Assembly: GCA_039621445.1 (NCBI GenBank)
Contig: CP154954.1
Span: 41,161,572-41,225,571, forward strand
Source of the DNA: Euglena gracilis
Lineage: Eukaryota
DNA length: 64,000 nucleotides
Reading direction: 5' to 3'
Made by a program: the position numbers and the translations under genes. Below the pieces are notes generated by a model that saw nothing but the letters and a program-made list of their open reading frames with translations, was not told where the DNA came from and did not search any database. Below are positions 1,108-63,015 of this stretch, piece after piece; within the stretch, counting starts at the first letter, position 1, and each line of letters starts with the position of its first letter.

Positions 1108-15532
<14,425 letters not shown>

Positions 15533-15581
15533 TGTGCACGGCGGAGGGCGGCCCAAACGAAGCCGGGTTTAACGTCGATAT

Positions 15582-15600
15582 CTGAGAACAGGAAGGCGGA
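15582..15600 (-). promoter_or_regulatory. Candidate spliced-leader (trans-)splice acceptor
   Basis: Polypyrimidine tract plus CAG (tccgccttcctgttctcAG), ~50 nt upstream of the ATG; conserved in the paralogue. Confidence 0.5.
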
Positions 15601-27473: not shown

Positions 27474-28205
27474 TATGTATATGACGCCCGGCAGTCCCCC
27501 CTGTGACTAAAGGTGCGTCCCTGCCTGCACTGTGGTTTGCCAGCAAAGCTGTGCCTGTAGCGGTGCCAACTTGGGGAGACGTTCCCCCTCCATGCCCAAC
27601 GACTGGTAACCTCTGTCCTCTGGTGGCGGGTGGGCGCTCATGCCTTGTGAGATACAGGGTTCTGGCCAAAAAAAGGTGTCCTCCTTCCAAAGGTGGTCAG
27701 TCGCCACAGCCCCCCAGCCTTGACCAAGCTCCATTCATCAAAATGTCGAAAATGGCGAAAATGTATTAGAAAATTTTGTTTTTCATCGACCCAGCCCAGC
27801 CCAGCCCCCTCCAGCCCCTGACTCCCCTGTGCCCCCTGGGGGGGGGGGGGTCCAGCCAGCAGCTCATTTCCAGCCAGCAGCCTTTTTGCCAGCCGGAGGC
27901 TGGACCCCCCCCCCCGGGCCCTTAATAAAACCCCTGCCCCCAATCCTGGTGAGACAGGGGTGGGGGTTCAGTCCAAAAAAGCACTTCCACAGACTGGCCA
28001 GACCTCCAACAAAATGTCCTTCGACCGGGGGGGGGGGGTCTTAGACATAGAGGATCAATTAGGTTTCAAATGTGCTTCATCGCAGGAAGTTTCACTGGAA
28101 CTGCGGCGATGCTTTTGCGGCAGAGCGGTTTTCCTTCGGGGAAACCTGCCCCGGGACAACCCGGTCCATGTCAGACAGCCAGCCGTGCCGCCGGGCGGGA
28201 AAGGG

Positions 28206-30524
28206 TCAGCCGACCTTCTTCTCCAGCTCCCGCATCTGCTCCTGAAGCTTCGCCACCACTTCGTCGCAGTAGGTGCGGACTGCCTGCAGCTCCCCCTTCA
28301 GGGACGTGTTCTCTTGCTCCAGGCTGAAGACCTTGGCCTCCCGAGCAGAGCCGCCCCGAACGTTCTGCCACCCTCCCCTCCCGCCTGCCCGACAAACTGG
28401 TGTGTGGAAGGAGACGGCAATGCAACGGAACGGCCCATCATGAAGACTCTGCGAGGGGTAACTGGGGCACCCTCGGCAACCGCCCAGCGGGGGTAGGGTT
28501 GGCCCTGGGCGGCCTCGTCCATGCGCTGCCCGAAGAGGTAGAACAGCTCGTGGCCTGCGCGGATCTTCTCAATGGCGTCCTGTCGGTCGCCCCAGCCGGT
28601 GATGCGGGAGAACGAGGCGGTGTCCTCCAGGTCCTATTGAGAAGCAGGGGGAGGGTTAACGTGGGATTTGGCGGGGCTGCGGTTGGCTGCGGCCGTGTTC
28701 ACGGGCGGCGTTGCAACAATCCACGTTTCCACTTCCCACGGCAACACCCACCCTCCAGATTGCCAGATTGGGGGCAGGCCGGGCGAGGTTGAAGGAATCC
28801 GAAGCGGGGGATGGATATGGTTCACCTGCCAACCCCAGAACAGTCCTGGACGATGCTACCCGACTCGTAGTATCTGCTGTTTCCCGCTCTTTTCACCGCT
28901 TTGGGGGGAATGAAGAGGTGCTCGTGCACTCGTCCACAACACCCCCTTGTCCAACGATCACTAATGTTCGTCTCCGGCCAGGGTGGGGGTTATGAGACGG
29001 GGGGGACCCAGGTCAGAAAAAGTTGGACAACAATTTGGCCGTTTTATGCTGTGCTTTCGGCCCTTTTGGGTCAATTTCGTCACTTTGGCCTCTTTGGGCC
29101 ACTTTTGGCCGCTGTTACCTATCCCCCGGGGGGGGGGTGGGGGGCGCTTGGCCCAAGCCATGATTGAAGGTAAAGGCAGGGGCCAATCTTATGGGGGCAA
29201 GTTTGCACACTAAAAATTTTGGCAGCCATGTGCAGAAGGCAGAAGGCCAAGTTTGTATGTAAGGAGAGGGGGCCAAGCGCCAATCTTTTTAAGCTGCTCT
29301 TGGCCATTATAAAGCATTTTTGGCAATTTTTTTAGCCACCTTTTGGAAACTCTTGGCTAATTGTAGCAGTCTAGCGTCAGTAATGTCAAGCCACCCTTTG
29401 AAATTTCCTTCCATTTTTCAGCCATATTGAGTCCTAGCATTTTGCATTTTCAGACATTTTTATCATTCTTGGCCATTTTTGTCCAGCTTTTTTTTGCAAA
29501 AAAAAGCAAATTAATGCACAATTATTCCCTTATTTTTGGAACCAGCATGGCTTCCAAAAAGGTCACATCTGACCAGGGGCCGGTCGTTGGACAAGCTTGG
29601 TTGAACGGGGGGGGGGGGGCATGTAATGCTTTCGAGCTTTTGAGCATCCCTTCGAAATCCTGGGCTGGGTATGTTGTCTCTAAATCATACAAAACCCCCC
29701 CAAGGAAACTGCCTCAGACAAGTCAGCGAGTACAGAAGTAGGAGACAGGTCCCTCCCTATAAGGACAGGTAGTGGGTGCGGGGGCAGGAGACACTTTTCT
29801 GTGCAGGTCCCAGTCAGAGAAAAATGACAATTGACATTAGAGACTCTTACAACTGACCTGCAATTGGAAGATGCTGATGAGCATCCTTGTGCTCTTGGAG
29901 ACACTGGAGCACGCTCATGCATGAAATACCCCCTTCTTTTCTCCTTCAGTCTACAATATATCAGGGGTTTCCACCCGATATATTTTTTTCCAATTTTTTC
30001 GGCATTTTCCCAAACACCTCTAATCAATCCCCCCAATCTTCGAGTATTTTGGGGGAAATTGCAAAGGGAAAAAGCAGCAGAAAATCGCAGGAAATTGCGG
30101 ACTGGAAAATTTGGTGCGGATGAAAATTCGGCATGGAAAGTTGCGAGAGAACTGTGGATATCAATCGCCCTCCGGAGAATGTTCAAGCTTGAGCACTCAC
30201 ACAACACACACAACACAACACACACACACAACGCACACAACGCACACAACGCACACAACGCACACAACACACACGGCACACTGTGTGGTACACACCTTGT
30301 AGTGGAGGAAGAAGTTGTGGATCTCCTCCTTGACGTGGGCGGGCAGTGTGTCCAGGTCCTGGATCTCATCCATGCGCGGCTCCTTCACCGCCACGGCGAT
30401 GATCTTCGTGTCGGGGCCGCGCTCGTCGACCAGGGAGAGCATGGCCACTGCCCGCACAGCCACCACGCACTGGAAGTGCAGCGGCCGCGGACCCCCCCAC
30501 TGGCTGCCAACAGGTCTGTGTCGC

Positions 30525-30619
<95 letters not shown>

Positions 30620-30623
30620 TGTG

Positions 30624-30667
<44 letters not shown>

Positions 30668-30701
30668 TGTGTGTGTGTGCATGCGTGCGTGCGTGCGTGT
30701 G

Positions 30702-30741
<40 letters not shown>

Positions 30742-33700
30742 TGTGTGCGTGCGTGCGTGTGTGCGTGCGTGCGTGTGTGCGTGTGCTGGTGTGCCAATGG
30801 ATGAGTGGGTGGGTGGGTGGGTGGGAGGACATCAAGGGAGGTAACCCCCAAAATAACCTGGCGGGTTGCCAGGTTATTGGAACCAACTTTTGCCCCCCCC
30901 CTGCCAGGTTTTTTGGGCCCTTTTTTCAGCGCCGTAAAGTATTTTTGCTAAAAAGGGGGTGCCAAGCTACCGGAACCTCCCCCCTCCAGGTTATTCGGCC
31001 ACTGCCAGGAGCAAGGCCCCGCCAGATTATTGGGGGGGGGGGGTTAGGGTGTGATGCGAGGGAGGAGGGTTCCGAAACCCCTTTGCTTCAAACCAGAAAA
31101 GAGCCGGTTTTGCTACTGTTTATGTGTAAAAGCTAGTCACCATTCTGCTTTGTATTGTCCACTGATTGTTTACTGATCTGTCAAAAAAGCTGGATAACAC
31201 GATTTGGGGGACACTTTTGAAACCCCCAAAATAACAGCAAACCCCCCAAAATGCCTGGTGCTTTGGGCCAGGCACTTTTCCCGAAGGCCGATCCACCCCT
31301 CCACCCTCCCTCCCACCCTCCCTCAACCCAAAGGGGGGCATTTGGAACTCCCCTCCCCTTAGGGCAGGGGGATCGTCAGACGTCCCCCACCCCATTCAAA
31401 ACTAGCGATCACATTACATTATACATCACATTTACATTATACACCCTAACGTCAGGGAACACAGTGAGGGGTTGCCTTGACCCTACCCCCCCCCCTCCAT
31501 ACAATTTTTTGCCGACCCCCCCCTGGGGGGGGGGGGGGGAGGCCGCTCCACTTTTCGAAAAACCAGTCAGTCACTTTTTTGGGGAAATTCTGGAATCCAA
31601 AAGAAACTTGACCAAAAACATGAAGAAAAAAAACTCCAAAAAAAATTTCCGGCGCCTTCGGCGCCGAGTCACTTTAGTGGTTTTTTGCCGACCCCCCTCC
31701 CCTCGGGGGGAAGGGGTCCGGGCCAAAAACCAGTCAGTCACTCTGAAAAAACCAGCCACCCACCCCCCCCAGGGGGTCGGCCAGTGACTAAGTGGTTGTA
31801 AGCCCCCCTCCCCCAATCAACCCATAACAGACAATGGGGAGGCCCAGGTGGGAATGAGGAGAGGATGAGGACGTCCATCGGGTTGCCGTCGGAGCCCAGT
31901 GTCTGGGGAATGAAGCCATAGTTCCCAGGGTAGAAGGCTGAGGAGTGACCCCACCGCCCCAGCCACAGCCACAAGGTGGGGGGGGGGGATGCCTGGTCTT
32001 GGTATGGGAATGGCCAAAAAAAAAAACACCTGGCACCGCGGAAAATTGGTTATTTTGATTTTGGTGGTTTGCCAAAAATTTGCCAAAAAAAATTGGCCAC
32101 TTTGAGGGGGGGTACCCTCAAATTGGCCATTTTCCTTTGGCGCCTTTGGCGCCAAAAGTGCCCCCCCCCAAAGTGCCCCCCCAGTTCCCATGGACCCAAA
32201 AGGGGGAACGGGGGGCAAGGGGGTTACCATGTTAAAATAGTAATGAAAATCGCTCACAAAAAGAAGATTTGTGACCACAAACCTCCACCTACCATGTACC
32301 CCCCCCCTGTACCAGGATACTGGAAGGCCTGGGGGGGGGGGTCAGACCCCCCACCACCCGGGACCATGGCACTGGCGCAAAGAAAACTCCTTAGCTGCCA
32401 AAGGCGCCAAAGGAAAATTTGACCTAAAAAAGCGGCGCCCCCAGAAATATGCCAAGGGAAGATATGGAAAAGCCTGGTGGGGGGGGGTAGACCGCCCCCA
32501 CCCACCAGGATGGGGGAAGGGGGGCCAACCGCCCACCCACCACCCGGTTGCGGAGACTCCCGTACAACCCTGCAGTTGGGCGCGGGCGGATTTGGTGTGG
32601 TTGGGGCGGCGGCTGGAACACGCGGTCCAGCTTCAACAGGCCGACCTCCTTGCTGAATTTGTACTTGTTGGAAGAGCCCTTCGGGTTCTCGATGACGGCG
32701 TTGACCACCTTCGGCGCCTCCACCCCAATGTCCCCTGCGAGCCCCCCTGCGGGTCCCTGCCCGACCCCCATGCTATCAGCTCCAATAAGTGTCCTTCAGT
32801 TGAACACGAGCCACGGTGCTCTGCGTCACACTGAACTGGTTAATTGCCATGGGGAACGCACCTTGCCCCACACACTGCAAATTAGAAGGAAAAGGCACGA
32901 TGCCAAAACGATGGTGAGGAAAACACATGCATTTTCGCGTCGGCAAGTCACAGCCTTACTGCACACAGACAGACACGCACCAGACTCGGGAGTGGGGTTT
33001 GGTCACTCTTTCCTTTCCTTCTGTTCAATTCTGCCCCGGTCCATTTTCTTCCATCATTTTTATTCGGCTCTGCTTCGTTTTTGCCTCCAGCGGTGGAAGG
33101 GACTCGGCCGCGCCGAGAGCACCTGACCCGCAACCCGGAAGCCCTGTCTGGGCACCTTTGTGATACAAGCAGTCGTCAGGAACAGCGAAACCATGCAATA
33201 TGGAATATTTTTTAACATCCCTTTTTTCTCACAGAGCGATGGTCGGACATGTCCAAGATATGGTGGTGACAAGTTGGGTCACATTTTGGGGAAATGGGCC
33301 TAAATGGCCCATTTTCCCTTGGTGTGGCGTTTCCAGGCTGCTTTTGGAAATTTTCCGCATCGTGGTTTTTCATTTTCACCGCATGCGCCGATGAATCCCT
33401 CGGTGTGCTTTGGGGGGCCTTTGGGGGGGGGGGGAGGGGCAGGGCCAGCTCGGCCGAGGTGGTACAGGCGGGGGACGTTGATGAAGTCCGTGGCGGTGCG
33501 GTCGTACGTCGCGGCCGCGTCGAGCACCTCCTGGATGGCGGCCTTCTTGTTGCGCCAGCCGGTCACCTTTGACCACTTGTCCTTCTCCAGCGACTTGTAC
33601 GTCTCGAAGAAGTGCTGGATCTCCACCTTGACGTGCTCCCCGATGTCCGTTGGGGGCCCGGCGGGGTCCTGTGTTCATGCTTTCCGATGCGGGAGGGGCA

Positions 33701-36700
33701 GACCCAAACGAGACATCAATAGGAGGAGTGTGCGACACAGCAACCCCCTGGAGGATAGAGTTGCCAAACGATGTCTGGCTGCCAAGAGGGCCAAATCCCA
33801 CCCAAATATAAGACCGTGGATCCTCTTTTTGGGTCCGTTGCTGAAAATCCCAAAAGAGGTCTTGTTTTGGGGGGTGGTCCATTTTTTCGATTTTTGCTGT
33901 AAAATCGTTCAAAAAAGAGTTCCCACGGGAGAGTCCAAAAGCAGATTCAAAAAAAGCAAGATTCTTGGAAATGAGCGAAAAAATTCTCAAAAATGCCACA
34001 TTCAACCACTGAAAAAAATGGCAAATAAAAAAATACGAATAAATTGCACATTGTGGTGCACTTTTACAAATTCAGGGAGTTTGCCTTTCAAATTCTTTCA
34101 AGAATCCTGGGAGGGTCTCATTTCGGGGGGGTCTGGTTTTTCTGGGCTTTTTCTGCTGAAAATCAGTCGAGGGGGTCTTGTTTTGGGAGAGGTTAAAACC
34201 CACCGGGGGCAGGTCGTTGACCTCCAGGAAGCGGGGGTCCTGGTGGACCACGGCCAGCAGCTTTGCGTCGGCGCCCTTCTCGTCCGCCATGTCCAGCACT
34301 CCGATGACGCGCGCGTCGGCCACCGTGCCCGGGGCGAGGGAGAAGGTGGGGGCAGGGGGGACGTCGAGAGGCCGGGGTGCCGGACGTTGCCGAGGTGCGA
34401 GGGAATTGGGTGGATGTGATGCGCACCAATTGTGCATCAGTTGTGTCACTGGGCGGTCGCTGTGGTTGACAATGGGCTGAGGCGCATGAATGCGCCTCCG
34501 TCTTTTGTTCGGTTCTGTGCATTTTGGTCTTCGTGCCCATCAAAGAGAAAGGGGGGGGTAGGTGGGTGTGGGTGGGTCAGTGTGTTGTGTATTGTGTGTT
34601 TGTGTGTGTTGTGTGTGGTTGTGTCTGTGGGTGGGTGGGTGGGTGGGTGGGTGGGTGGGTGGGTGGGTGGTTGGCGTGTATGGTCTGCATGTGTGTGGAT
34701 GCGCGGTTTGAAAATACCTTAGCACTGCTGAGTGTGCAAAACACAACAAAAAGCATTGGCACGTAACTGAAAAAAAATGAGGATGCGGTGGAGATCAGCG
34801 GGAGGTTTGCTGTGGGAGGTTGGGTTGCGTTTGGTTTGTCGGCCACGGCCAACCGAGTTCAAAGAAAAATTATCTGGTTGGAATTTGGCACCCGCGGCGG
34901 TCAGCCGCCACCAGCCAGAAATCCAACCATGGACGTTGCTGGCAATGCAATGCTTGGAACTGCAGCCGGCCGCAGCCAGCTGCGGCCGGACATGAGCCCA
35001 ACCAGAGAGCTCCCCCAGATTGCAATGTGTGGTCATATTTGCGTGATAAATTGGCCCCTGCTGGGTACCAGTTGCCCCAGACAGCCGCCCAAATAGGGGT
35101 AATACACATGGAGAACCCTCAGTCGGTGCCTTTGGCGCGTCGATCGGGTCCACCCATTTTGCCCTAGTTGGGTGGCTCTTTGGGTTTGCTGTGCACCTTG
35201 TGGAGACCAATGTAATAATGGACAGGTCCAACTGTTTTTATTAGAATCCTAACCGTAACCCTATTCCTTTAAATAATTTCATCAACTGCGTAATTACTCA
35301 ACAATTGGTCGGCTGGCTGGCTGAGGCTGGCCGCAGCCGAAGGTGATCCAAACACAGAAAAATGTGTCCCCCCGTTGGTTGGAAAAGCAGCCAGCCGTGG
35401 CCGGCAACAGTCCAAACACCAGTCAGTTGAGGTGAAGTAGCTTGGATGGCCCTGCCACAGCCAACAAAACGTGAGCCAACCTCCCATGGCAACCCCCCCC
35501 CAGAGATCAACCACAGTTGATTGTCTGTGATGTGGTCCGGGGAGGAGGGTCAACCCCCCCTGGCTGGACAGCACCAGGATGTCGAGGGGGTCGCCGTCGC
35601 CGCACAGGGTGCGCGGGATGAAGCCGTAGTCGTACGGGTAGAACACCGCGGAGTGCAGCACACGGTCCAGCCGCACGCAGCCCGTCTCCTCGTCGAACTC
35701 GTACTTGTTGTTGGCCCCCTTAGGGCACTCGATGTACGCCTGCACGATGTCCCGGGCACGGCGAGGCCCTCCTGGGACGTTACAGTCATGAGCAGGAGGA
35801 GCGGGTTTATCCGATGCGAGTGCTTAAAAAAATAAACAACGAAAAAAAGCTATCCAGATGAGGCAGAGGGCTGGGGTCGAGGCAGAAACGCCCCTCCCCT
35901 GCCACTCCACTGCGAGGGAGCTACCCAAACGACATGGCTTGCCCAGCCGTGGGCCGGGAACATGTCGTATCGGGGGGCCTGCCCGGCGCGGGTCACGCCA
36001 AACAGGTCGCGGGGTGCGTGGTGGAAGTCCACTGGCGGCTGCTCGCAACGCTTTTGGGCGCCTTCCTCCCCCTCCGTGGCGGCCTCCGACTTCTTGTGTT
36101 CGAGGTCGCCGCGCGTGAGCACAGGCGCATTCATGCAAGGAACAGCCCCCTAAAAACGAGGGCAGAGAAAACTGGCTTTACGCTGTCCTTGCTCACCCAC
36201 CAAAAACTATTACATTATACGAAACGCACACAAGGACCAAAGGCAGCACAATCTTCATTGCGCCTTGACAAAGTTGTCAGCTGAAAGTCTTCAGCTGACA
36301 AACAACTGGGCACAAGCCCACAACTTAGGCCTTTTGAGGACTTACCAGCATGACAGCAATCATCAACGTTGAAGAAAATACTTTTTGGATTTTCTGTTTT
36401 TTGGGGGGCGATTTTTGTTACTTGGCCACCCGATGAGGTCCTTTGGGTGGTTGTTAACTAAAGGCGGGGAAAATCCTGACCTGATGCTTCCAATACAGAC
36501 CCTCGCGGCAACTTCCAAAGGGCAGGTTATAGCCTCGCCAGGATGACAACCACTTCCGGGAGGGGGGGGGCGGACAAACCACCCCCTTCAGGAAGGCTGT
36601 CAGGGGCGGCGGGCGAGGTACATCTGGCGGGAGTCGCGGAGGTCCTGCAGGGCTCGCTCACGGCCGTGGAAACCGCTCACCTTGGCCCACTTCACGTGGC

Positions 36701-39700
36701 CGGGCTTGGACTCCAGCCGCTTGTAGTTGGCAAAGAAGTGCTGGATCTCCCGCATGCAGTGTGACGGCGGCAGGGCAGGATGGGTGGGCGGGGGGGGGGG
36801 GGGGGGGGGAGCAGGCTGAATTCGACCAACACTGGGGGGTCAGAGAGCCAGCGGGCCGGCAAGCACTTCCCCCTGGCTGCCTGGGGGGATCGGTAGCTGC
36901 CTGGTCGTGGGCCAAAGTATTTCAAAATGGGCCTTTTCTGGGCTTTCGGCGCCTTCCGCATCAGAGTGCCAGGCACTTTGGGTGGGGACTCCACCCGCCC
37001 CCAGGCGTCGGATCTGGGTGCCTTGGAGTGCCTGTCCAAGCAGACACATCGGAGGACCCACAGTCGGTTGCAAATGGTCCCACTTCTTCCTCTGGTGGTA
37101 GAAGCAGGTGCAGGACCCAGCGAGGGGAAAGCCGGTGCTTTCGCCTGCGGCGGCGGGGGTCCGGACCCTGGGTGGGAGATCGGGCAGGTCCCGGATCGTG
37201 TCAGAGCGGGGGTCCTTGTGGACCACCGCCAGCAGCTTCTGGTCCCGGGCAGGCAAGGCCCTGACCACCCACCGGGCTACCCACCGCTGAATGTTAGGGT
37301 TGTTGTTAGGGTTTGTTGGGGACAGTTGGTGAGGGGGGCACGAGGGCTGAACGGGGACCCATCACGTCGCAGAGAAGTGGCACTGGTGTGGACGGAGGGG
37401 AGGGGAGTCTCCCGTTAAAAAGGGAGAGGCTCCTGCACAGGGCCCAGGGGCCTGGCCCTGCCCCTTCTCGTCCTCCATGTCCATCACTCCGATGATGCGG
37501 GCATCCGCCACGACGCCCGGCGTCAGGGGGTAGTTGGACAGGATGAGCACGTCGATTGGCAGCGAGGGCACCGCTCAACGGAGACGCTGGCCGGGAGTGC
37601 ATAGCAGACAGTCTTTCACTGGCAGTATGTGTGTGTGCGTGTGTTTAAGACATTAAATAAAGCTAACGTTTGGGGATCATTCAGTTTGCAAAATGGCATT
37701 AAATGAGCTAAATCAAGACGGTTTTGAGACATAATCTTTTGTCTTTTGTCCCTCCAGTTTCCAGAAATGAAAGCGCTTTTGAGCCTTCATACAAATAATG
37801 CAGAGGATTCAACCTGCAGCGCTTTCAAAAAACATAAAGAATGAGAATTACAGGGGAAAAAAGAAAAAGAAAAGGCACCAACAAGAATAAAATGCCCAGC
37901 AAACGAGGTATTCTTTGGCGGCACATCTCGCACTTAAGCTTTTTTTCTTTGTTAATGTGCACTAACGCATACATGGACATCTTTTTTTAACAAAAATGAC
38001 AAGATATGGCCCCAAAAACCCAAAAATGTAGGCAGGATGTGCTGTGCCAGGACGAGGAGATGGAAGCTGGGGCTTTGGCAAATAGTAGTGCATAAGAGCA
38101 GGTGTAACCGCAGCATATGATACGCGCAACGTCCAGCAGGTGTGTTTTGAACAATGGCTGTCTCATTAACAGGATATTGACTGAATGATTTGGTGAGCTG
38201 TGCCTAAGCCTGAAGCGATACCCTGCAACTTAGCTGTTTGAGAAATTGGCAGTCGGTGTGGGCAAATGCGCAAATGGGCGGTGTGCGCAAATGCGCACAC
38301 CAACCGTTTGTGTAAGTGTGAAAAGGACCATGTGTGCCAGCTGCAATTGATATCTTTGCAAAATTGTACAAGCGGCTGGCTTGTGCAAATGCGAAAAACA
38401 GTCTGTTTGGTGGGTTGGCTCATCTGCACACAACACCCACTTGTGCAACTTAACACACGTACCATTTGGAGGGTGTGGCACCACTGAACTTTAGAAATCC
38501 TTACGTGCGAGGTATTCTGTAAAATTTACAAATTTACACAATAGAACGGCCAGCCTGCGGGCCCGAATTTGGGCATCAGCAATTGAAGCTGTGAAAAACC
38601 ATCCTTGGACCCTGAAACATCAAAACAAACGACACTTTCAGGTTTTATCCTGAAAAAAACTAATCTTAGAAGTGCCCTTCACCCCCAGTATTTTAGTCCA
38701 AAAATGAGGTACAGTACATTGGCTGAAAATGGATGTGTATGCTGACTTGAAAACCCCTGTGTTCAGGGTGCCACATAATGCAATACACTGACACGCTTCA
38801 TTTGACCTCCTCAAGTACACCTTACAACACCCTGTTTCGATCCTTCGTCTCAGAAGTCACGGTTGCCAAGGCTTCAAAATGAAAAGGAATTCTGGTTGGT
38901 GCCCACAATTGTGAAAAGCAACCATTTTAATGGTTGATGCGCGCATTTGCGCACACCAAGCCCAAGCATACCAGCAATTCAACAAAGGGGGTCCAGCACC
39001 ACAGGAATACAAGGGAGGTAAAATCACAGTGTTGTCACATTCATTTTCCAACTCCAAACACACTGCCATTGGAGGCTCTCAGTTGGTTTGAAAATGGTTG
39101 GTCTGTGCAAATGCGCACATCGCCCATGGGTGCATTTGAGCACAGCCACGGAGCCTTAAACAGCAGCAGGGCATTGATGGGCAACTTGCCACTGAATTCA
39201 ACAGAAAACTGGTGGCAATCCTCCTGTGTTCTTTATCCCCCTCATGAGACCCCTGTGGCAGGATTCTCGAACAGTCCATTGTTTATGTTGCATGTGCACT
39301 TCCACTCCTTTCGTGGCTAACTTCAAAAACCCCCACAATGTGCCGCAAAACTTCAAAAAGCAAGCAAAGAGGTGGGTGGACCTGCCACCCCACCTCCAGA
39401 GCACCACCTGGCGCTGGCAGTTGTCACACAGGGAATGGGGGGAGGCGGCACCGGGATTTTGGTGTTTTTGTCGGTGTTTTTTTTCCACTTTGAGGGGGGG
39501 TAGGTCCGGGGGTTTTCGTGTCATTCTGACCTCAAAAAAACAGCAAAAAAAACACGTAATTCTCAGGAAAGCCAGTGCCCAAAATGAGAAATCGCTCATA
39601 TTTGTCCAATGCTTCTGCCTCTCACCCTCACCACTTGCAACGCCGGTGGTGTGCGAAAATGCGCACATCGACCTAAAAAAGCTTAAGTGCGAGATGCGCC

Positions 39701-40449
39701 GCCTAAGGTATTTATCCCAAATGGCCAGCGAGTTGGCCAGCAGTGACCTCGAAGGGTCGCCATCGCCGCACAGGGTGTTGGGGACGAAGCCATAGTCCCC
39801 GGGGTAGAACACGGAGCTGTGCAGGACGCGGTCCAGGGTCAGCAGGCCCCAGTCCTTCTCCAGCTCGTACTTGTTGGGGGTCACCGAGGGGGCCGGCGGT
39901 GCAAAGGGGAGGAGGGTCCCCCAACCCTCGGGCTTCTGGTCTGAAGAGCTCTTATTGCAGTGCTTGCTGTGGTTGGCCCAAGGGTGGCCAAGGGTGGCGC
40001 CATTGCAATAGATTCCTCAATTTTGAAGATCAATTCCCCTCTTTGGGCTTGGCTGTTCTGTGCTCTTTCCAACCCCCCAAAAATGGGCAAGCTCAATCCC
40101 ATGAATGGGGAGGGCACACCCCGGAAAGCATGGGAAGGGAACCTACTTGGAGAAAAGGGATGCCGAAAAAAGCCTCCATTCACAAGCACCACGAACCAAA
40201 TATGATCCAACCACCCGGGACCCGGGGGACCACTCCATGCCACTCAACGTTGGTACATCCTCCAAAGACAACCGGCCTGCTCTCGGTGGCACGGCCGCCC
40301 CCCGCCCCGAATGGCACCTCCACGAACACGGGCACGATGTCCTCCTGCGGGTTCTGCGGCAGCGCCTCCAGCACCGCGCTGTCGATGAGCATGTGGCCGT
40401 GGCTGGTGGACCGGTCGGAGCCCGTGTAGCTGGGGTGGTGGGTCGGCAT
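28206..40449 (-). CDS. ppa: Soluble inorganic pyrophosphatase (family I) with three tandem PPase domains and a C-terminal coiled coil; 14 exons, 655 aa
   Basis: Exons 40449-40307, 39882-39754, 37557-37460, 37246-37174, 36765-36603, 36137-35955, 35751-35566, 34347-34211, 33651-33456, 32732-32615, 31946-31850, 30482-30296, 28633-28511, 28340-28206 sum to 1968 nt, from ATG to TGA in one frame. Each domain has the motifs NKY(E/K), LDRV.HS..FYP..YGF.P.TL, DG(D/N)P.D, DE.G.D.K and FF..YK. Confidence 0.93.
30527..30790. repeat. (GT)n/(GCGT)n microsatellite in PPase intron 11
   Basis: Seen directly. Confidence 0.95.
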
Positions 40450-40472
40450 GGCAGGGGTGGGACCAGGGAGGT

Positions 40473-40493
40473 CTGGGGGTCGGAAGGGGGGGC
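40473..40493 (-). promoter_or_regulatory. Candidate spliced-leader acceptor of the PPase gene
   Basis: Pyrimidine-rich ccccccttccgacccccAG, 23 nt upstream of GCCATG. Confidence 0.45.
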
Positions 40494-42942
40494 CCATGCC
40501 GGCAGCCACCTACACCACACCCGCGGATGCGGTGCGCAATGGGGGGTTGAGAGTTACTGAGTTAGAGTTCACCATTCTGGGGTGATAATTCCAACCCACG
40601 TACATCAGAAAAAGTGAAATTGACTGTCTCCACTCCGCCGGACGGCAAATACCTGTGCATAGATGTGGTGCCCGCCATTCAAATCTGCATGCTGGGGTTC
40701 CCAGTGAAGGAGAAGCACCACATCACAGCAATGGGTGTAGGCCATCACACCACATTCATGAATGTAACCCCCCCCAAAAAATAAGCCCCCCCCCATAAAT
40801 AAGACCCTTCCTGGCTGGTCCGAGCAAAAATCCATGAAATGAACCCCCCCATAAATAGACCCCCCCCCCTGCCGGCGCGAAGCGCTGGATTTTTGAAAAA
40901 ATGGGGCATTTTGGGGGATATATCTGCCATTTTGGAACAATTTTCACACAACTCAGCATATTTTCTCCTATTGTCTGGCACGAAGCGCCGAATTCTTCGA
41001 CAATTGGTATTTTGGGGGTCGTTTTTTTGGACATTTTGGGGTGTCCAAAAACTTTTCCAGCAAAAATCAATAAAATAGACCCCCCCCCATGAATAAGACC
41101 CCCCTCGGGCTTTCCAGCAACCGACCCATAAATTCCTATTATATATATATATATATTAATCCTATTATGGGGGGTTTAGGTGTAGTCATCCCACCCCCAA
41201 TCCCACACCACAAACAGACGCATTCCACCCAACAAATAGACCCAAGCCCATTGCTTATCAATCTGCGGGTGGACACGCACCGTACTGGGCCTCACTGGGC
41301 AAACAATACCAATATTTCCGTCCAAATATCAGGAACCTCTAACACAATACGCAACCCAGCCCATGATGCAACCGTCAATAGGGCCAAACGGAATGCCGGC
41401 ACCCCACTCAACAACCAGGGTGCTAACCAGGAAGTTTCATTTTCTTGCAAGGAAAAAAATGCCAGGACAGTGCCACCAGCTATGGCACTTGATCCTTCTA
41501 AAATGAAGATCTGTAACCAAATGCGGATTAACTGTTGGCCACAGTTAATCCGCATTAATCTGTTAATCCGCCACAGTTTATTCGCATCCGCCACGAGAGG
41601 CACAGCCCTCTCGTGGTGGGAACTTCAAATCCTTCAGAATTCTGGCACTTCCAATCCTGGCAAACTCACAATTTCACGCATTGGGGGAAGGATATGAAAA
41701 TCCAATGTGGTCCAAAAGGCTGCCCCTGGACTCGCTGGCACTGGTTCAGTTGGATTTACCTCAAAACCGAAGGGCTTTTCAACCCTGCAGGAATCCAGCT
41801 CGTAAATTCGAAAATTTGGGCCGGCTGGAAAAAGCTGGGCTGACCCCATAGTTGGGCTCGAAGAGGGTTAAAAAAAAATTGTGTTTCTTGTTTGTTTTGT
41901 GTTCAGTTTCGAAAAAAATGCCCCCAAAAACTGCCAGTTATACAAAAAAAAACCCGAAAATTGCCTGGGTGGCCTTTCACAAGCCACTTTTTGCCCATTT
42001 GGCCGACTTTTTGCACCTCGAAAGCAAGAAATGTGTTGCCGTCCATCCAGACATCCTTGGAAAATAAACAAAATTTGTCAATGGGGGAGGGGTGTCCGAG
42101 GCTGGAAAAAAGGCTGCGCTTAAGCAACGGCCCACCATCCAAAGTGCCAAAAAAAGGGGTGAACTTGACCATACAATTTTCGCCCTTGGACAGCCTTTTC
42201 ACCTGAGGGAGGTCCTTGAGGAGCTGGGTCCTGGGCAAAAAAAATGCAGTTCCAGGGTTTCCGGTCAGCCCTGGGCCTCCCCGAAGACTTTCTTCGCCTT
42301 CAGGCTGCCCTTCTTCTCAATCCCCTCCAAGAACTTGGGGAGAGGGCCCCCGCCTCGGAAGGCTGGCCAGCCCCCCCCACCCCCCCCACCTATCCGCAGC
42401 TGCAGGCAAGAACGTGAGGGCCTCCCCCTGAAAAAGGCGACCTGACCCTGTCCCCCCCCCACCACCACTGGGTTGGCTGATGGGGGGGGGGGGGGGTGCC
42501 CATAGCGGTCCGCGGCCCCGCCTTCGGGACCCACAGCCATTTCAAAGTGTCCGCCGGGGTCCAACCCAAACCCCACCTCCCCCACCTCCAGCGGGAGGGG
42601 GCCCTCCGCGGAGCCCATCAGCGCGGTGCAGAATGCCGGGACGGTCAGCGCGTCCCCGGCGGCCAGCGGGTGCAGCGCCTCCAGCAGCTTCTTGTCCCAG
42701 TCGGCAGGGGTGTCGAGGCCGGTGTGCTCATACAGGTCGACTGTCGGCCCGCCGGTGCCCAGGGGTTCCCCACGTCCCCAGCCCCACAGGTGTGTGTACC
42801 CACACCGCTGCATGAAAGCCTTGTGTCATGTGCCATAAGTGGGGGTTGGGCCTGTATGGCCGGGCACCGAGGTTGTCTTTTATTTGTAAACAGGGGGCAG
42901 CCCAGACGCACCACACCACACCGCACCGCGCTGCATCGCACC

Positions 42943-43414
42943 CAGGGATGGATGGGAAGCCTTGAGGGGGGGGGTCGGACCCCCCCCCTCCTACATCGAA
43001 ACTGAGGAGGGGCCGAAAATTTTTCGATTTCATGGACGGGCAAAGGGCCGGAAATCGGGTCGAAATCGGTCAAAAATCCGTGATTTTTTTTTGAAAATCG
43101 ATCCAAAAATGCTCATTTTTTGAAAATTTTTGAACATTTTTTGGGGGGAAAAACACCAACACATCAAAAAATGGGCAATATGTCCAAAAGTCAGCAAAAG
43201 GGGTATTTTTTGCTCATTTTCCGGCGCGCAGCACCGGAAGAAAAATTTCTGCTATTTTTGGCACCTGTCAAGGAGGAGGGGTGGGGGTCTGGACCCCCCT
43301 CCCAACATCTAGGGGGTGGGGGTCCGGACCCCCCCCCTACCACCTTACCCCCCTAGGGGGGGGGGACCTCCCTACCATTTACCTCAATACCGAAGGGCTT
43401 CCCATCCATCCCTG
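42943..43414. mobile_element. hAT-like MITE
   Basis: TIR CAGGGATGGATGGGAAGCC; 8-bp TSD atcgcacc; second copy at 63397-63940. Confidence 0.9.
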
Positions 43415-43664
43415 ATCGCACCATACTTGTGGTCAATCACGGGAGGTTTGGCGGCCAGAGGTCAGGTGGTTGGTTGGGTGTCTGACCCTGGCCCAACCAA
43501 AAAAAAAACTATTTTGGCCCACGGCCCGAACATTTTCATCTTGTGGCCCCCTGCACATCATTTTGATGGCCTTGGCCGACCCAGCAGCAACTACCTTCTG
43601 GCGTTGCATTGCGCGCTTTGCATTCCTGGATCTGCATTTTGTAGTGTGGTGTGGTGTGGTGTCT

Positions 43665-44070
<406 letters not shown>

Positions 44071-44359
44071 ATGTGGTGTGGTGCAGTGCGGCGCGATGAG
44101 GTGCAGTGCAGTTAGGAAATCATTTAGGGGCCCAGTTGTCACGGAACAAAGGCGGCCCAAGCCTTCCACGATGGCCACAGCCTCCTTCACGGACATCTCC
44201 TTTCGCTTCTCCACACCATACTTCTCAAACGACTTCTGCAGGTACTTGCTGATGGATGAGCCGCTGTGCAAGTCGGCCCCAGGGCAGAATGTGGGGACTC
44301 AAAGCACTCATGCCCAAAGCCGAGGCCACACAACATGGAGTAACACGCCATGTTGGGAG

Positions 44360-44525
44360 GAGGGGTTTTTTTAAGACCGGGGGGCGGTGGGATATACTTT
44401 TCGGCACCGAAAATTTTGAAAGAAGAGCTATTTTTAGCATTTTTCGCAATTTTGGGCACTTTCAGGGAAATTTGAGTGGATCCCCTAGGACCCCCCCCCC
44501 GGGTCCAAGGATAAAAAAACCCCTG
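44360..44525. mobile_element. hAT-like MITE in the first intron of the truncated paralogue
   Basis: Termini gaggggtttttt / aaaaaaacccctg; 8-bp TSD gttgggag. Confidence 0.75.
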
Positions 44526-44628
44526 GTTGGGAGGAGGGAGACCATTGATGCAGCCCTGCCTCAAGTCAGCCAGCGACATTGTGCGCAGCGGAGGGCGGCC
44601 CAAACGAAGCCGGGTTTAACGTCGATGT

Positions 44629-44648
44629 CTGAGAAGAGGAAGGCGGGA
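44629..44648 (-). promoter_or_regulatory. Candidate spliced-leader acceptor (paralogue)
   Basis: cccgccttcctcttctcAG, ~50 nt upstream of ATG 44579. Confidence 0.45.
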
Positions 44649-46487
44649 TGGATGGGGGGTGGGGAGGGAGGGTTTTGAACTGGCTCCCAGGCAACAGCGT
44701 AGCACAGGATGCAAAACTGACGGTGCTGCATTTCTTTAATGTCCGGTTCCTCAGACCCAAATCTCTCTGATTCCCAGAACGTGGAGAGGCAGGACCAAAG
44801 TGGTTCAAAAGCACCCCCCCCCACAGAGGGTGGGAGGCATGGATACTTGCTGAGGACCCCAGCAATGATTACATTGATTTGCGGACGACAACATTTCTGC
44901 ATTCCTGGGATTGTTTCACTCTGAGAGTGCTGGATTTCCAGGCTGACTCTCCGGCTGGGTGTTGTGGAAACAAGGCAGAAACAAAAGGGAATGGCCCCAC
45001 AAAAAAGAAGCAGGAAATTGTCGCAGAGGCATAACACAATTGAATCCTACTGTCTTCAACACCTACGACGTCAACAGAAAATACCCGCAGCCACTTACAC
45101 CAAACTTCACCTCCGACGGAAGCGGCAGAGCAAGGAAGAATGCGACGGACATCCATGCGCAACAGTACACTACACCGTACAGCAGAACTGTTCACTGTCC
45201 CCCTCCCTGCCCCTCTCATTTTCCCTTTCCTCCCTCTGGTGAAGGGAGCCGATGGCAAGAGGGGTTGGGGACATGGCTGGACGGGAAGGTTTGGTGTCGG
45301 ACCCCCCCCCCACCAACCAACACACTGCGAGGGAACTTTCCTTTGGCGCCGAAAGCTTTGAAGAAAAAAGTTTTGACGTGGAATTCGCCGCCCCTGGAGA
45401 GAAAAAAAAATGGGAAGGGGGGCCCACCAACCACGATGACAGGATGATGGCAGGGAGGGGGGGTGCCTACCCTCCACAGGGTTTCTGGGTTTCTCGTCCA
45501 ACTCTGGCTGGGGCACGGGTGGCACGGGATGTCGCCGCGGGAGGGGCAACAACACCCCACCGGGGTGGGTCTGGGTCTGGGAAGGCCACACAGTGCCGGC
45601 TACGGACGCAGGCCAATCATGAAAACAGCTGCCAGCGCACGCCTGCCTAGATCGGTGGCACAGGGCGAGGAGGCCCCCAACCCCATCCTATCCCCACAAC
45701 CCTCATGGTTCCACATTGCACAACAATGGCAGTGAAGAAAAGGAACAGTGCCGGGAAAAAATCCGGAACTTCAAAATATCCGTCTTTTTTGACAAGCAGC
45801 CAACAATGAAGACCACTCAGACCCTGTGATGCCTGGCCTCTTAGGGTGGGTGGGTGGGCCAGGTTGATTCTCAAAATGGATGGCTGGGGTCAGGCCTTCA
45901 TCCCTTTAGATACACTTCATCCCCCTGGGGGTGTGACAAAATCAGTCCAGAGCCAGAGGCAGACGTTTTCAAACAAAACATCACACGGTTTCCAGCAGCA
46001 GGCTGGGGTACCAGCTTGGCCTGGTCATGTCTGCGGCCACGCAATGGCGGTGGCGCTATGGCTGGGGCTGTGGGCTGTGCGTTTGTGTGTTGTGCAATGG
46101 AGGCAGGCCCCACATGGGTCGAGGAAGTGCCCCCCCACCCAACCTGCGGCACACACCGGTGCCTAGGGGAGAGGAGCAGACCCCCCACAGTGGTGCCCAC
46201 GTCGGACGTCCTGGGGACAGAGGCAGGGGCTAAGCAAGCCAAACGCCGGTGGCCAGAGGTGGCCAGGAAGGATATAACTTGCCCAGGTCGGAAGACGGCG
46301 GTCCTGTTGGTGCCAGGGCACGGCGCGGGCTGGGGCCACGGCCGCGAGATGCCGCCTGCGTGTTGCCTTGGCGAGGACTCCGGGCTGGTGCGAAATTGTT
46401 GCAACGGTCTGTGGACACAGGCAAGGGATTCCGGACAAGGTTGACAGGGTGTTCTGCCTGTAAAGTCAGCTGTTAGGTCACACACCC

Positions 46488-49400
46488 CACCCACCCACAC
46501 CCACACCCACACCCACACCCACACCCACACCCACACCCACACCCACACCCACACCCACACCCACACCCACACCCACACCCACACCCACACCCACACCCAC
46601 ACCCACACCCACACCCACACCCCCACCCACACCCACACCCACACCCACACCCACACCCACACCCACACCCACACCCACACCCACACCCACACCCACACCC
46701 ACACCCACACCCATCTCGGCAGACTTCGGCTCATCGCCCCTCTAACCTCCAACACAACGCTTCAATCAGAGTGCTCCACTTCACGTGTTCTTGTGTATGT
46801 CTGTAGCTCATGTATCCTCTTCCCCCCCCTATTCATCTACCATTGCTATGTCAAGCACCAAGGGCATTCCACTTGCTCATTAACGTCTGCCATGGTGTGC
46901 TATACACACTGTAATGTACCCTCTGCAAGGCGATTTTATCGATTGTATCGTTTTGGTTGGTGCTGCCCCCTTTCCACCCTGGTCCGACGGGAGTGGTTGT
47001 GCTGTTTGGGTTGCCCCTTTCTGCTCTCGTCTGGTAGGGCTGAGTGTGTGCTTGAGTTGTTTGTGCTGCCCCCTTTCCGCTCTCGTCCGGTAGGGCTGAG
47101 CGTGTGCTTGTGTTGTTCGTGTTGCCCCCTTCCCGCTCTCGTCCGGTAGGGCTGAGCGTGTGCTTGTGTTGTTCGTGTTGCCCCCTTCCCGCTCTCTCCG
47201 GTAGGGCTGAGCGTGTGCTTGTGTTGTCAGTGCTGCCCCCCTTCCCGTTCTCGTACGGTTGCTTGTGTTGTTAGTGCAACGTCCTTCCCCTGATGTCTTG
47301 TTCCATGCCAATGATGCTCTTATTGGTTAGATATTACCCTCCCCCCCCCTATGTCCAACGACTAGTAACCTCTGTCCTCCGACCGGGGGGGGGTGGTCGT
47401 TGGACATAGGGTAGTGACCAAAAGGTGTCCTCTGACCGGGGGGGGGGGGGTGGTCGTTGGACAAGGGGTCAAAATAAATGTTGGCGGGTAATCGGGACCC
47501 CACCCCCCAAATAAGGTCAAATTTTCCCTTCCAGCGCTTTGCGCCGAAAATTTTGGGCAATTTTGACAAGTTTTTGTCCAAAAAAGTGCCAAAAATGGCA
47601 TTTTGGCCAATTTTTGACCGATTTGGGGCACAAAAAAATTTGGCCCGGCGCGGACCAAAATTTTTGCCAAACCTCCAAAAAGGTGTCCTCTGACCGGGGG
47701 GGTGGTCGTTGGACATAGGGGGGTCGTTGGACATAGGGGGGGGGGGGGTACTATCCTTGAATTGTTATTTTTTATTTATTTATTTATTTTCATTTTCCTC
47801 CCTTCCCGCAATAAATGCTAAATAAGCCCCTTTCGCGTTGCCTGTACCCGCCCAGGCTCACCAAACCAAACCAAACCATGCCCCAAATCACAGTGGGGTG
47901 ATTGGAACCTTTGTCTACGGTTGTGTGTTCAGAATGCCAGAGATAAAATGGAAAGAAAAATACCACACATGCAATTGCATCTGTCTTTGAAAATCATTCC
48001 TGGAGAAATCAAACTCCTTTTCATTTGACACTGTCCCAATTAAATGCGGTCAGACGCCGATTTTTTTGCTTTTCAAACAACATTACTTAACCTGCATTAC
48101 TTCATCACACTCATAATTTTTATGGTAAACAGGAGTGCAATGCAAACCCTTTGTGATCCACCCACACCCACACCCACACCCACACCCACACCCACACCCA
48201 CACCCACACCCACACCCACACCCACACCCACACCCACACCCACACCCACACCCACACCCACACCCACACCCACACCCACACCCACACCCACACCCACACC
48301 CACCACCACACCCACACCCACACCCACACCCACACCCACACCCACACCCACACCCACACCCACACCCACACCCACACCCACACCCACCCCCACACCCATC
48401 TCGGCAGACTTCGGCTCATCGCCCCTCTAACCTCCAACACAACGCTTCAATCAGAGTGCTCCACTTCACGTGTTCTTGTGTATGTCTGTAGCTCATGTAT
48501 CCTCTTCCCCCCCTATTCATCTACCATTGCTATGTCAAGCACCAAGGGCATTCCACTTTGCTCATTAACGTCTGCCATGGTGTGCTATACACACTGTAAT
48601 GTACCCTCTGCAAGGCGATTTTATCGATTGTATCGTTTTGGTTGGTGCTGCCCCCTTTCCACCCTGGTCCGACGGGAGTGGTTGTGCTGTTTGGGTTGCC
48701 CCTTTCTGCTCTCGTCTGGTAGGGCTGAGTGTGTGCTTGAGTTGTTTGTGCTGCCCCCTTTCCGCTCTCGTCCGGTAGGGCTGAGCGTGTGCTTGTGTTG
48801 TTCGTGTTGCCCCCTTCCCGCTCTCGTCCGGTAGGGCTGAGCGTGTGCTTGTGTTGTTCGTGTTGCCCCCTTCCCGCTCTCTCCGGTAGGGCTGAGCGTG
48901 TGCTTGTGTTGTCAGTGCTGCCCCCCTTCCCGTTCTCGTACGGTTGCTTGTGTTGTTAGTGCAACGTCCTTCCCCTGATGTCTTGTTCCATGCCAATGAT
49001 GCTCTTATTGGTTAGATATTACCCTCCCCCCCCCTATGTCCAACGACTAGTAACCTCTGTCCTCCGACCGGGGGGGGGGGGGGGGGGGCGTTGGACATAG
49101 GGTAGTGACCAAAAGGTGTCCTCTGACCGGGGGGGGGGGGGGTGGTCGTTGGACAAGGGGTCAAAATAAATGTTGGCGGGTAATCGGGACCCCACCCCCC
49201 AAATAAGGTCAAATTTTCCCTTCCAGCGCTTTGCGCCGAAAATTTTGGGCAATTTTGACAAGTTTTTGTCCAAAAAAGTGCCAAAAATGGCATTTTGGCC
49301 AATTTTTGACCGATTTGGGGCACAAAAAAATTTGGCCCGGCGCGGACCAAAATTTTTGCCAAACCTCCAAAAAGGTGTCCTCTGACCGGGGGGGTGGTCG

Positions 49401-61900: not shown

Positions 61901-62384
61901 AAATAACGTCCAAAAAGGTGTCCTCCGACCGGGGGGAGGGTGGTCATCGGACATTGGGGGGGGGGGTGGCTACTGGTGAAGTGGCGGGCGCCAACCGCGA
62001 GCCACCCGTCAACGTTGGCAGGGGAGGAAAGTGGGGGACCTGCGCTTCCCCACCGGCCCCTGGACACGGCTGCCCTCCGGTGTGGCCCTCCCTCGGCCCG
62101 GGGACGGGGTCTGTCCCCGGCGCATCCAAGCCGCGTTGGCCGCGGCGCCACACGCGCTGCGGCCGGCAGCCGGGCGGGGGAAGGCACGGACCGACAAGGT
62201 GTCCTTCAACCGGGGGGGGGGGGTCTTAAACATAGGGGGTCAGTTAGGCTTCAAGTGCTTCATTCCAGGAAGTTTCACTGGCACCGCGGCGATGCTTTTG
62301 CGACAGAGCGGCTTTCCTTCGGGGAAACCTGCCCCGGGACAACCCGGTCCGTGTCGGCCGGCCGCGCCGCCGGGCGGGAAAGGG

Positions 62385-63015
62385 TCAGCCGACCTTCTTC
62401 TCCAGCGCCCGCATCTGCTCCTGCAGCTTCGCCACCGCGGCGTCGCAGTGGCTGCGGACCGCCTGCACCTCCGCCTTCAGGGACGTGTTCTCCTGCTCCA
62501 GGCTGAAGACCTTCGCCTCCCCGGCAGAGCCGCCCCGACCACACTGCCACCCTCCCCCCGCCTGCCCGACAGACTGGTGCGTGGAACACATTGCAATGTA
62601 CCAAAATGTGTCTAGGAAGCTGAGTACATTTAACCAAATTGTCAAACCGCAAATTATGCCAAGGGTGCCCCGCCCACCCCTCTCAGGGTGCTCAGAACAG
62701 GGTGTTCCGCTGCGTTGCCGTCTCCTTCCAGTATTGCCAAACCCCTCGAAAAGGAGAGGGGGGCACTGGAGATGGGCTCTTCTCCCCTAGAAAGGGATAT
62801 TATGTTGGAGCATGGCATGGAAAAAAAACACAGATAATGCACATTAAATGTTATCTGTGAACCTCCCAGCGGGGGTGAGGTTGGCCCTGGGTGGCCTCGT
62901 CCATGCGCTGCCCGAAGAGGTAGAACAGCTCATGGCCTGCGCGGATCTTCTCGATGGCGTCCTGCCGGTCGCCCCAGCCGGTGATGCGGGAGAACGAGGC
63001 GGTGTCCTCCAGGTC
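62385..63015 (-). CDS. ppa: 3' end (last two exons) of a second multi-domain PPase paralogue; gene continues beyond the window
   Basis: Exons 63015-62893 ([41 protein letters not shown]) and 62519-62385 ([19 protein letters not shown]...EKKVG*); same AG acceptor and CAG/CTG intron as paralogue 1. Confidence 0.88.

What the first reader, a model, noticed from the sequence alone, without database searches (positions are those of the whole stretch)
28206..40449. Pyrophosphatase with three fused PPase domains and a coiled-coil tail
Seen: 14 exons join into one 655-aa ORF containing three complete family I PPase domains. A ~65-aa linker follows domain 1, a short linker follows domain 2, and a ~45-aa heptad tail ([19 protein letters not shown]...[13 protein letters not shown]) ends the protein. 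Known: family I PPases normally have one catalytic domain per chain, and the E. coli enzyme is a dimer of trimers. Inference: this chain may be a covalent pseudo-trimer that dimerises or is anchored through the coiled coil. I do not recall this architecture being described.
Basis: partly seen in the sequence, partly recalled or inferred. Interest (0 to 1): 0.8.

Follow-up and report, generated by a model that had tools for sequence, protein, structure and literature searches.

The report
Triple pyrophosphatase gene with coiled-coil tail
One intron-rich Euglena-type gene encodes a single protein made of three pyrophosphatase domains, the third probably inactive, and a dimer-forming helical tail; this rare design is shared by several protist groups and has apparently never been studied.

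Summary
On the minus strand, 18 exons (44579 to 28206) join into a 744-codon frame with no internal stop. It is 725/744 identical to an assembled transcript protein, EG_transcript_1590. Its ATG at 40449 is internal Met106, giving 639 aa rather than 655. Four upstream exons add a helical N-terminal module.

Pfam finds three PF00719 domains in the transcript protein and six relatives. The design is rare but conserved: 47 near-full-length clusters, including Euglena mutabilis, Eutreptiella, two diplonemids and Guillardia.

Across 55 members, domain 1 keeps all 14 catalytic residues in 54. Domain 2 keeps them in 22, including this gene. Domain 3 keeps them in none.

AlphaFold2 gives confident whole-chain models (pTM 0.76 and 0.88). 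A two-copy fold pairs the tails in parallel and in register (score 0.48, best control 0.01).

Best reading: a covalent pseudo-trimer with two active sites and one degenerate domain, dimerised by the tail. Nine literature searches found no description. No RNA reads could be laid, and the trimer geometry was not checked directly.

The parts
28206..44579 (-). Whole coding span of the gene: 18 exons, 17 introns, 744 codons plus TGA
   Evidence: joined frame of 2232 nt, no internal stop, 725/744 identical to P0001
42289..44579 (-). Exons 1-4 (44579-44562, 44274-44164, 42738-42610, 42336-42289): N-terminal module of about 100 aa, helical and EF-hand-like at lead level only.
   Evidence: AF2 helices 13-96 with block pLDDT 55-76; Atlas best 0.87, EF-hand clusters; Pfam found nothing at E<=10
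36618..40458 (-). Exons 5-9 (40458-40306, 39881-39756, 37559-37458, 37244-37173, 36764-36618): lead-in and PPase domain 1, with all 14 catalytic residues
35955..36104 (-). Exon 10: 50-aa linker between domains 1 and 2. It holds 6 of the 19 differences from P0001.
33456..35751 (-). Exons 11-13 (35751-35566, 34347-34211, 33651-33456): PPase domain 2, with all 14 catalytic residues, followed by the linker of about 21 aa
   Evidence: (Thermus 2prd, E 8.9e-57)
28512..32732 (-). Exons 14-17 (32732-32616, 31947-31852, 30484-30296, 28633-28512): PPase domain 3. Fold is kept, but two catalytic positions are changed (Glu to Lys; Asp to Asn within DGNPMD).
28206..28341 (-). Exon 18: 45-aa heptad tail and stop codon. 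It continues the last helix of domain 3.
   Evidence: helix 676-743; parallel in-register pairing

Best explanation
This is one nuclear gene of a Euglena-type genome. It is read as one mRNA and one chain of about 83 kDa (mass is my estimate from 744 residues). The chain order is: a helical N-terminal module, PPase domain 1, a 50-aa linker, PPase domain 2, a linker of about 21 aa, PPase domain 3, and a 45-aa coiled coil.

Shown:
- The open 744-codon frame.
- Three PF00719 domains of the bacterial family I type.
- Co-linear relatives in euglenids, diplonemids, a cryptophyte and unnamed protists.
- Domain-specific conservation of the catalytic residues.

Inferred:
- The three domains pack against each other within the chain as the three subunits of a bacterial PPase trimer do.
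- Domains 1 and 2 hydrolyse pyrophosphate.
- Domain 3 has lost full catalytic competence. It completes the trimer and carries the C-terminal helix.
- Two chains pair through a parallel, in-register coiled coil. This would give a six-domain particle with four active sites. In diplonemid-type members, where domain 2 is also degenerate, it would have two.
- With no hydrophobic N-terminal segment, the protein is most likely cytosolic.
For: -: 18 exons, 744 codons, no internal stop, 725/744 identical to P0001.
- three PF00719 stretches in 7 of 7 proteins scanned.
- 12 proteins align co-linearly from domain 1 to the tail.
- named members from Euglena mutabilis, Eutreptiella braarudii, Rhynchopus euleeides, Diplonema papillatum and Guillardia theta. 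There are 47 clusters of 585-744 aa among 60 hits at E<=1e-30.
- domain 1 rows form one clade (SH-aLRT 85) and domain 3 rows form one clade (100). 31 of 32 single-domain PPases lie on the other side of a branch with support 97. The triplication therefore predates these lineages.
- catalytic residues intact in domain 1 in 54/55, domain 2 in 22/55 and domain 3 in 0/55.
- none of the 19 differences between the window and P0001 falls on a catalytic position.
- AF2 pLDDT 82.7 with pTM 0.76 (P0001), and pLDDT 89.0 with pTM 0.88 (P0003). By my own reasoning these values are too high for three freely jointed domains.
- two copies of domain 3 plus tail scored 0.48 against a best control of 0.01. That mark was reached by 20 of 30 proteins solved as pairs of one chain and 1 of 23 solved as single chains (microbes). 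On eukaryotes it was 17 of 29 and 0 of 30. The runs share at least 83% of contacts and partner pLDDT is at least 77. The closest contacts are i-to-i (707:707, 714:714, 718:718).
- heptad positions are conserved. Position 704 is L/V/I in 49/55, position 714 is L/M/I/V in 50/55, and position 711 is Asn in 31/55. That an Asn at a core position favours parallel dimers is recalled knowledge from GCN4.
Against: - No RNA reads were laid on this locus. The guide transcript is 97.4% identical, not identical, so it may come from a paralogue or allele. The window holds pieces of two further copies.
- Exon borders were placed by homology to that transcript, because 16 of 17 introns lack GT..AG. The in-frame joining is therefore partly built in.
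- No tool gave coordinates, so likeness to the bacterial trimer is untested.
- The two-copy fold shows confident contacts only along the tail (residues 693-743) plus residue 581. It does not support a hexamer-like stacking of the bodies. Generic coiled coils may also score from memory.
- Loss of activity in domain 3 is read from two substitutions only.
- Location in the cell is untested.
Confidence: 0.6

Rival explanations
1. Tethered enzyme. The chain is real, but the coiled coil binds another protein or structure (cytoskeleton, flagellum or membrane skeleton) rather than itself. Alternatively, the three domains join domains of other chains to build larger assemblies.
For: - The tail-only interface leaves the bodies free.
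- Weak matches of the tail to coiled-coil families of cytoskeletal proteins, all below their cut-offs.
- An extra N-terminal module in this gene that 11 of the 12 aligned relatives lack.
Against: - Whole-chain pTM of 0.76 and 0.88 argues for a closed intramolecular body.
- The self-pairing fold passed its mark against three controls.
Confidence: 0.2
2. Polyprotein precursor. As with some Euglena plastid proteins (recalled knowledge), the chain is cut at the linkers into three separate pyrophosphatases.
For: Euglenids are known to make polyproteins (recalled). The chain has three units of one family.
Against: - The units are only 56, 43 and 44% identical to each other.
- Each unit is orthologous across phyla.
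- The two linkers differ in length (about 50 and about 21 aa) and in sequence.
- The first 30 residues hold no hydrophobic signal-like segment (read).
- Domain 3 is never catalytically intact.
- A cryptophyte and diplonemids share the design.
Confidence: 0.07
3. Three neighbouring genes, or a non-functional copy, wrongly read as one gene. The transcript would then be an assembly chimera, or this copy would be silent.
For: - No reads were laid on this locus.
- Partial duplicates of the head and tail lie in the same window.
Against: - No stop codon lies between the domains across 744 codons.
- A dedicated linker exon exists.
- 47 independent clusters of the same length and order come from transcriptomes, metagenomes and one annotated genome.
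Confidence: 0.05

Closest known systems
Bacterial and archaeal family I soluble pyrophosphatases (Thermus thermophilus 2prd, E. coli 1i40/1ino)
   Same: Each of the three domains has the same fold and sequence family. Domain 2 matches 2prd at E 8.9e-57. Foldseek gives TM 0.92 normalised to the target. Domains 1 and 2 keep all 14 catalytic residues.
   Different: Those enzymes have one domain per chain and form a homohexamer, a dimer of trimers (established knowledge). Here three diverged domains sit in one chain, one of them degenerate, with a coiled coil. No solved chain among the 50 rows shown covers more than one domain (TM normalised to the query at most 0.23).
Trypanosomatid acidocalcisomal soluble pyrophosphatase (VSP1), an EF-hand domain plus one PPase domain (recalled, not tested)
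   Same: A euglenozoan family I PPase with an added N-terminal helical module.
   Different: It has a single catalytic domain of the eukaryotic type. Here Pfam PF18823 scores 23.8 bits, below its 26.8 cut-off, with no stretch of its own. The N-terminal module matched no Pfam family.
Sulfate-activation fusions that carry a PPase domain (APS kinase / ATP sulfurylase / PPase)
   Same: A family I PPase domain fused into a longer chain in protists. I saw this only as a passage in the review PMC11210485 and as the listing of PMC2275785.
   Different: Those fusions join different enzymes of one pathway. Here the same enzyme is fused three times.
Unnamed multi-PPase chains found here: P0125 (545 aa), P0129 (483 aa), P0135 (398 aa)
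   Same: Two or three family I domains in one chain. P0125 starts with a signal-like hydrophobic segment.
   Different: They lack the coiled-coil tail and the co-linear linkers, and score far lower against the family profile (337 bits or less, against 663 or more). They are probably independent fusions. I did not place them in the tree.

Membership tests
Family I inorganic pyrophosphatase (Pfam PF00719) | Profile match above the curated cut-off | tested here: met
   P0001 scores 515.5 bits with 3 stretches; 8 window exon pieces score above 23.5 bits.
Family I inorganic pyrophosphatase (Pfam PF00719) | Beta-barrel fold with two flanking helices | tested here: met
   the AF2 model matches 2prd with TM 0.92 (normalised to the target) and 1qez_A with TM 0.94.
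Family I inorganic pyrophosphatase (Pfam PF00719) | Fourteen conserved active-site residues (E, K, E, R, Y, Y, D, D, D, D, D, K, Y, K). That this set is the active site is recalled from E. coli work. | tested here: inconclusive
   met in domains 1 and 2 of this gene. Not met in domain 3 (Glu to Lys; Asp to Asn), nor in domain 3 of any of the 55 relatives.
Family I inorganic pyrophosphatase (Pfam PF00719) | Mg-dependent hydrolysis of pyrophosphate | not testable with these tools
   Needs an enzyme assay.
Bacterial-type hexamer (dimer of trimers) | Three domains packed around a three-fold axis, and two trimers stacked | tested here: inconclusive
   pTM of 0.76 and 0.88 implies fixed packing of the domains, but no coordinates were available for a superposition. 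One search gave no confident body-to-body contact apart from residue 581.
Euglenid polyprotein precursors | N-terminal signal-like presequence, and near-identical units joined by a short repeated linker (features recalled) | tested here: not met
   no hydrophobic N-terminal segment, by reading; units are 43-56% identical; the two linkers are unlike each other.
Trypanosomatid EF-hand PPase (Pfam PF18823) | Match to PF18823 above its cut-off | tested here: not met
   23.8 bits against a cut-off of 26.8, with 0 stretches, lying inside a PPase domain; no family matched residues 1-125.

The most novel reading that the evidence does not exclude
The family is a natural covalent PPase trimer in which fusion allowed the subunits to specialise. 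Domain 1 stays the catalyst. Domain 3, and in diplonemid-type members domain 2 as well, became a pseudo-enzyme that still completes the trimer needed for activity and may sense a ligand. The coiled coil lies on a two-fold axis and rebuilds the bacterial dimer-of-trimers from two chains. This would be an undescribed quaternary solution for a housekeeping enzyme, shared by euglenids, diplonemids and cryptophytes.
Probability: 0.35. Interest if true: 0.7.

Novelty: new variant of a known kind. Interest (0 to 1): 0.55.

Why it matters
Soluble pyrophosphatase is a textbook one-domain housekeeping enzyme whose activity depends on its oligomer.

A conserved chain that hard-wires three subunits, keeps one always active and lets one or two decay is a natural experiment. 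It shows which parts of the trimer are needed for catalysis and which only for assembly.

It also gives a clean case of pseudo-enzyme birth inside a fusion, and a shared marker across euglenids, diplonemids and a cryptophyte. Whether that sharing reflects ancestry or transfer is open.

Tried and rejected
- RNA support at this locus. The look-up of sequencing runs listed no holder on record as RNA ('no RNA holder listed').
- Whole genome. None is held for this window, so the copy number outside the window is unknown.
- Earlier notes of this scan. Searches returned nothing relevant.
- N-terminal module. Pfam at E<=10 found nothing. The Atlas gave EF-hand clusters at 0.85-0.87, below the 0.9 mark, which is a lead only.
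- Foldseek on the whole model returned only single-domain PPases, so it could not test the trimer geometry.
- Literature. Nine searches and a term search inside the review PMC11210485 (two passages seen) found no description of a multi-domain family I PPase. Supplementary tables of Euglena proteome papers were closed and may list this protein.
- The polyprotein, three-gene and chimera readings were considered and ranked low (see the rival explanations).
- P0140, a plant protein with 4 stretches, looks like a repeated segment inside one domain and was not counted as multi-domain.

Full report
**What is in the sequence**

Open frames on the minus strand between 40.5 kb and 28.2 kb carry pieces of the family I pyrophosphatase profile PF00719.
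- In one search, 9 of 10 pieces matched at E<=0.1, and 7 of those were above the 23.5-bit cut-off.
- In one search, 1 of 3 pieces matched, at 63.1 bits.
- The pieces cover the profile three times in order.
- The last frame ends in a heptad-like tail that hits only weak coiled-coil families, all below their cut-offs.

**Transcript-level guide**

I searched with one exon of domain 2 for longer proteins. That search found 511 hits among 521 candidates and listed 120. Twelve of those listed are 617-744 aa.

The best hit is the eukprot entry EG_transcript_1590 (P0001, 744 aa). That this label means Euglena gracilis is my recall of the naming scheme. Pfam finds three PF00719 stretches in all 7 of the 7 such proteins I scanned.

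**Gene model**

The model rests on three steps:
- tblastn of P0001 on the window;
- a search for two small exons;
- enumeration of every junction.

These give 18 exons from ATG 44579 to TGA 28208-28206. Joined inside a script, they make 2232 nt, or 744 codons with no internal stop. 725 of 744 residues are identical to P0001, with no indel.

The intron lengths are 170-2196 bp. Only 1 of 17 introns is GT..AG. That fits the non-conventional introns of euglenids (recalled), but it means the borders rest on homology.

Its ATG at 40449 is Met106, so its stretch encodes 639 aa, not 655. The four missed exons encode a helical module of about 100 aa. This module has no Pfam match and only a lead-level EF-hand likeness (best score 0.87). 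Of the 12 aligned relatives, only P0001 has it.

**How common the design is**

A profile of 12 members was searched against 1.84 billion representatives.
- It found 10,917 PPase-like proteins at E<=0.001.
- Only three representatives among the 150 listed are full-length and co-linear: P0005, P0121 and P0122.
- There are also fragments and a few other multi-domain chains (P0125, P0129, P0135).

At 90% clustering, 47 of 60 hits at E<=1e-30 are 585-744 aa. The source names cover Euglena mutabilis, Eutreptiella braarudii, Rhynchopus euleeides, Diplonema papillatum and Guillardia theta. The design is therefore rare, but conserved in several protist lineages. Where it has a name at all, it is filed simply as 'inorganic pyrophosphatase'.

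**History of the three domains**

I built a quick maximum-likelihood tree of 68 rows.
- 36 rows are domains from 12 of the 22 aligned proteins. Near-duplicates and fragments were left out.
- 32 rows are single-domain hits, taking every third hit of 150-260 aa.

Results:
- All domain 1 rows fall in one clade (SH-aLRT 85).
- All domain 3 rows fall in one clade (SH-aLRT 100).
- 31 of 32 single-domain enzymes lie on the other side of a branch with support 97.
- Domain 2 is not resolved as one clade (3 changes). Its diplonemid rows are very long branches.

The triplication and fusion therefore predate the split of these lineages. Within P0001 the domains are 56% (1 vs 2), 43% (1 vs 3) and 44% (2 vs 3) identical.

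**Catalytic residues**

I used the 14 positions that are invariant in domain 1. I recall these as the E. coli active-site set. In 55 members of at least 580 aa:

| Domain | Members with all 14 residues |
|---|---|
| 1 | 54 of 55 |
| 2 | 22 of 55 |
| 3 | 0 of 55 |

- The other 33 proteins have 9-12 changes in domain 2; all four named diplonemid members (Rhynchopus P0013, P0293 and P0311; Diplonema P0294) are among them.
- In domain 3, the second Asp of the D-x-D-x-x-D motif is never Asp. It is K in 17, R in 15, N in 9, E in 5, S in 4, Q in 2 and other residues in the remaining 3.
- This gene has domains 1 and 2 intact. Its domain 3 has two changes: Glu to Lys, and Asp to Asn within DGNPMD.
- None of the 19 differences between the window and P0001 touches these positions.

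**Structure**

- Domain 2 matches Thermus PPase 2prd at E 8.9e-57.
- AlphaFold2 of P0001 with 22 aligned rows gave pLDDT 82.7 and pTM 0.76. One unbroken helix runs from residue 676 to 743.
- The Eutreptiella-type orthologue P0003, which lacks the N-terminal module, gave pLDDT 89.0 and pTM 0.88 with 52 rows.
- Such whole-chain scores imply that the model fixes the three domains against each other. This is my inference.
- Foldseek found only single-domain PPases, with TM normalised to the query at most 0.23 in the rows shown. No solved chain has this design, and I could not check the geometry against a bacterial trimer.

**Pairing of the tail**

I folded two copies of residues 530-744.
- The score was 0.48, against a best control of 0.01.
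- That mark was reached by 20 of 30 proteins solved as pairs of one chain and by 1 of 23 solved as single chains. On eukaryotes the counts were 17 of 29 and 0 of 30.
- The runs share at least 83% of contacts, and the partner's pLDDT is at least 77.
- The confident contacts run along residues 693-743 and are i-to-i. This is a parallel, in-register pair.
- The bodies do not touch with confidence, except at residue 581.
- A coiled coil may pass from memory. The result shows likeness, not binding.

The first heptads are conserved across the family:
- position 704 is L/V/I in 49 of 55;
- position 711 is Asn in 31 of 55;
- position 714 is L/M/I/V in 50 of 55.

**Reading**

The best-supported account is a covalent pseudo-trimer with two working sites and one degenerate domain, dimerised by its tail and probably cytosolic. 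My rough odds for each step are:
- one gene and one chain: about 0.9;
- compact pseudo-trimer: about 0.7;
- domain 3 not a normal catalyst: about 0.75;
- tail homodimer: about 0.6;
- a true hexamer-like stack of the two bodies: about 0.3.

The rivals are a tethering role for the tail, a cleaved polyprotein, and a mis-joined or silent copy.

**What is missing**

- No RNA reads could be laid.
- No genome is held for this window.
- Supplementary tables of papers were closed.
- Nine literature searches, plus a term search of one review, found no description of a multi-domain family I pyrophosphatase.

Noticed in passing
window 62191-63333, minus strand: A second copy of the last two exons of the same gene (63033-62893 and 62522-62388, followed by a stop). 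It is 84-94% identical in DNA to 28006-29021, and its tail peptide differs at several residues. The rest of this copy lies beyond the window end.
   Followed up: partly
window 12174-17494, minus strand: A duplicate of the gene's upstream region and first four exons: MSLADL at 15532, then 15195-15079, 14062-13934, and a small exon near 12290. It is co-linear with 42187-46499 at 78-92% identity. No PPase exon follows in the 12 kb down to the window start. It may be a truncated copy, or a different gene that shares the N-terminal module.
   Followed up: partly
window 28209-44579: 16 of 17 introns lack GT..AG. Only the intron 30295-28634 is conventional. Long GT-rich microsatellites sit in introns at 30523-30785 and 43644-44068.
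   Followed up: partly
P0131 (5113 aa, NCBI, unnamed): A giant protein with 19 stretches matching the PPase profile but no D-x-D-x-x-D-like signature. It appears to be a non-catalytic repeat of the PPase fold.
   Followed up: no
P0125 (545 aa), P0129 (483 aa), P0135 (398 aa): Other chains with two or three family I PPase domains. P0125 has a signal-like N-terminus. None has the coiled-coil tail, so they are probably independent fusions.
   Followed up: no
33 of 55 family members, including Rhynchopus P0013, P0293 and P0311 and Diplonema P0294: In this clade domain 2 has lost 9-12 of its 14 catalytic residues, leaving only domain 1 intact.
   Followed up: partly
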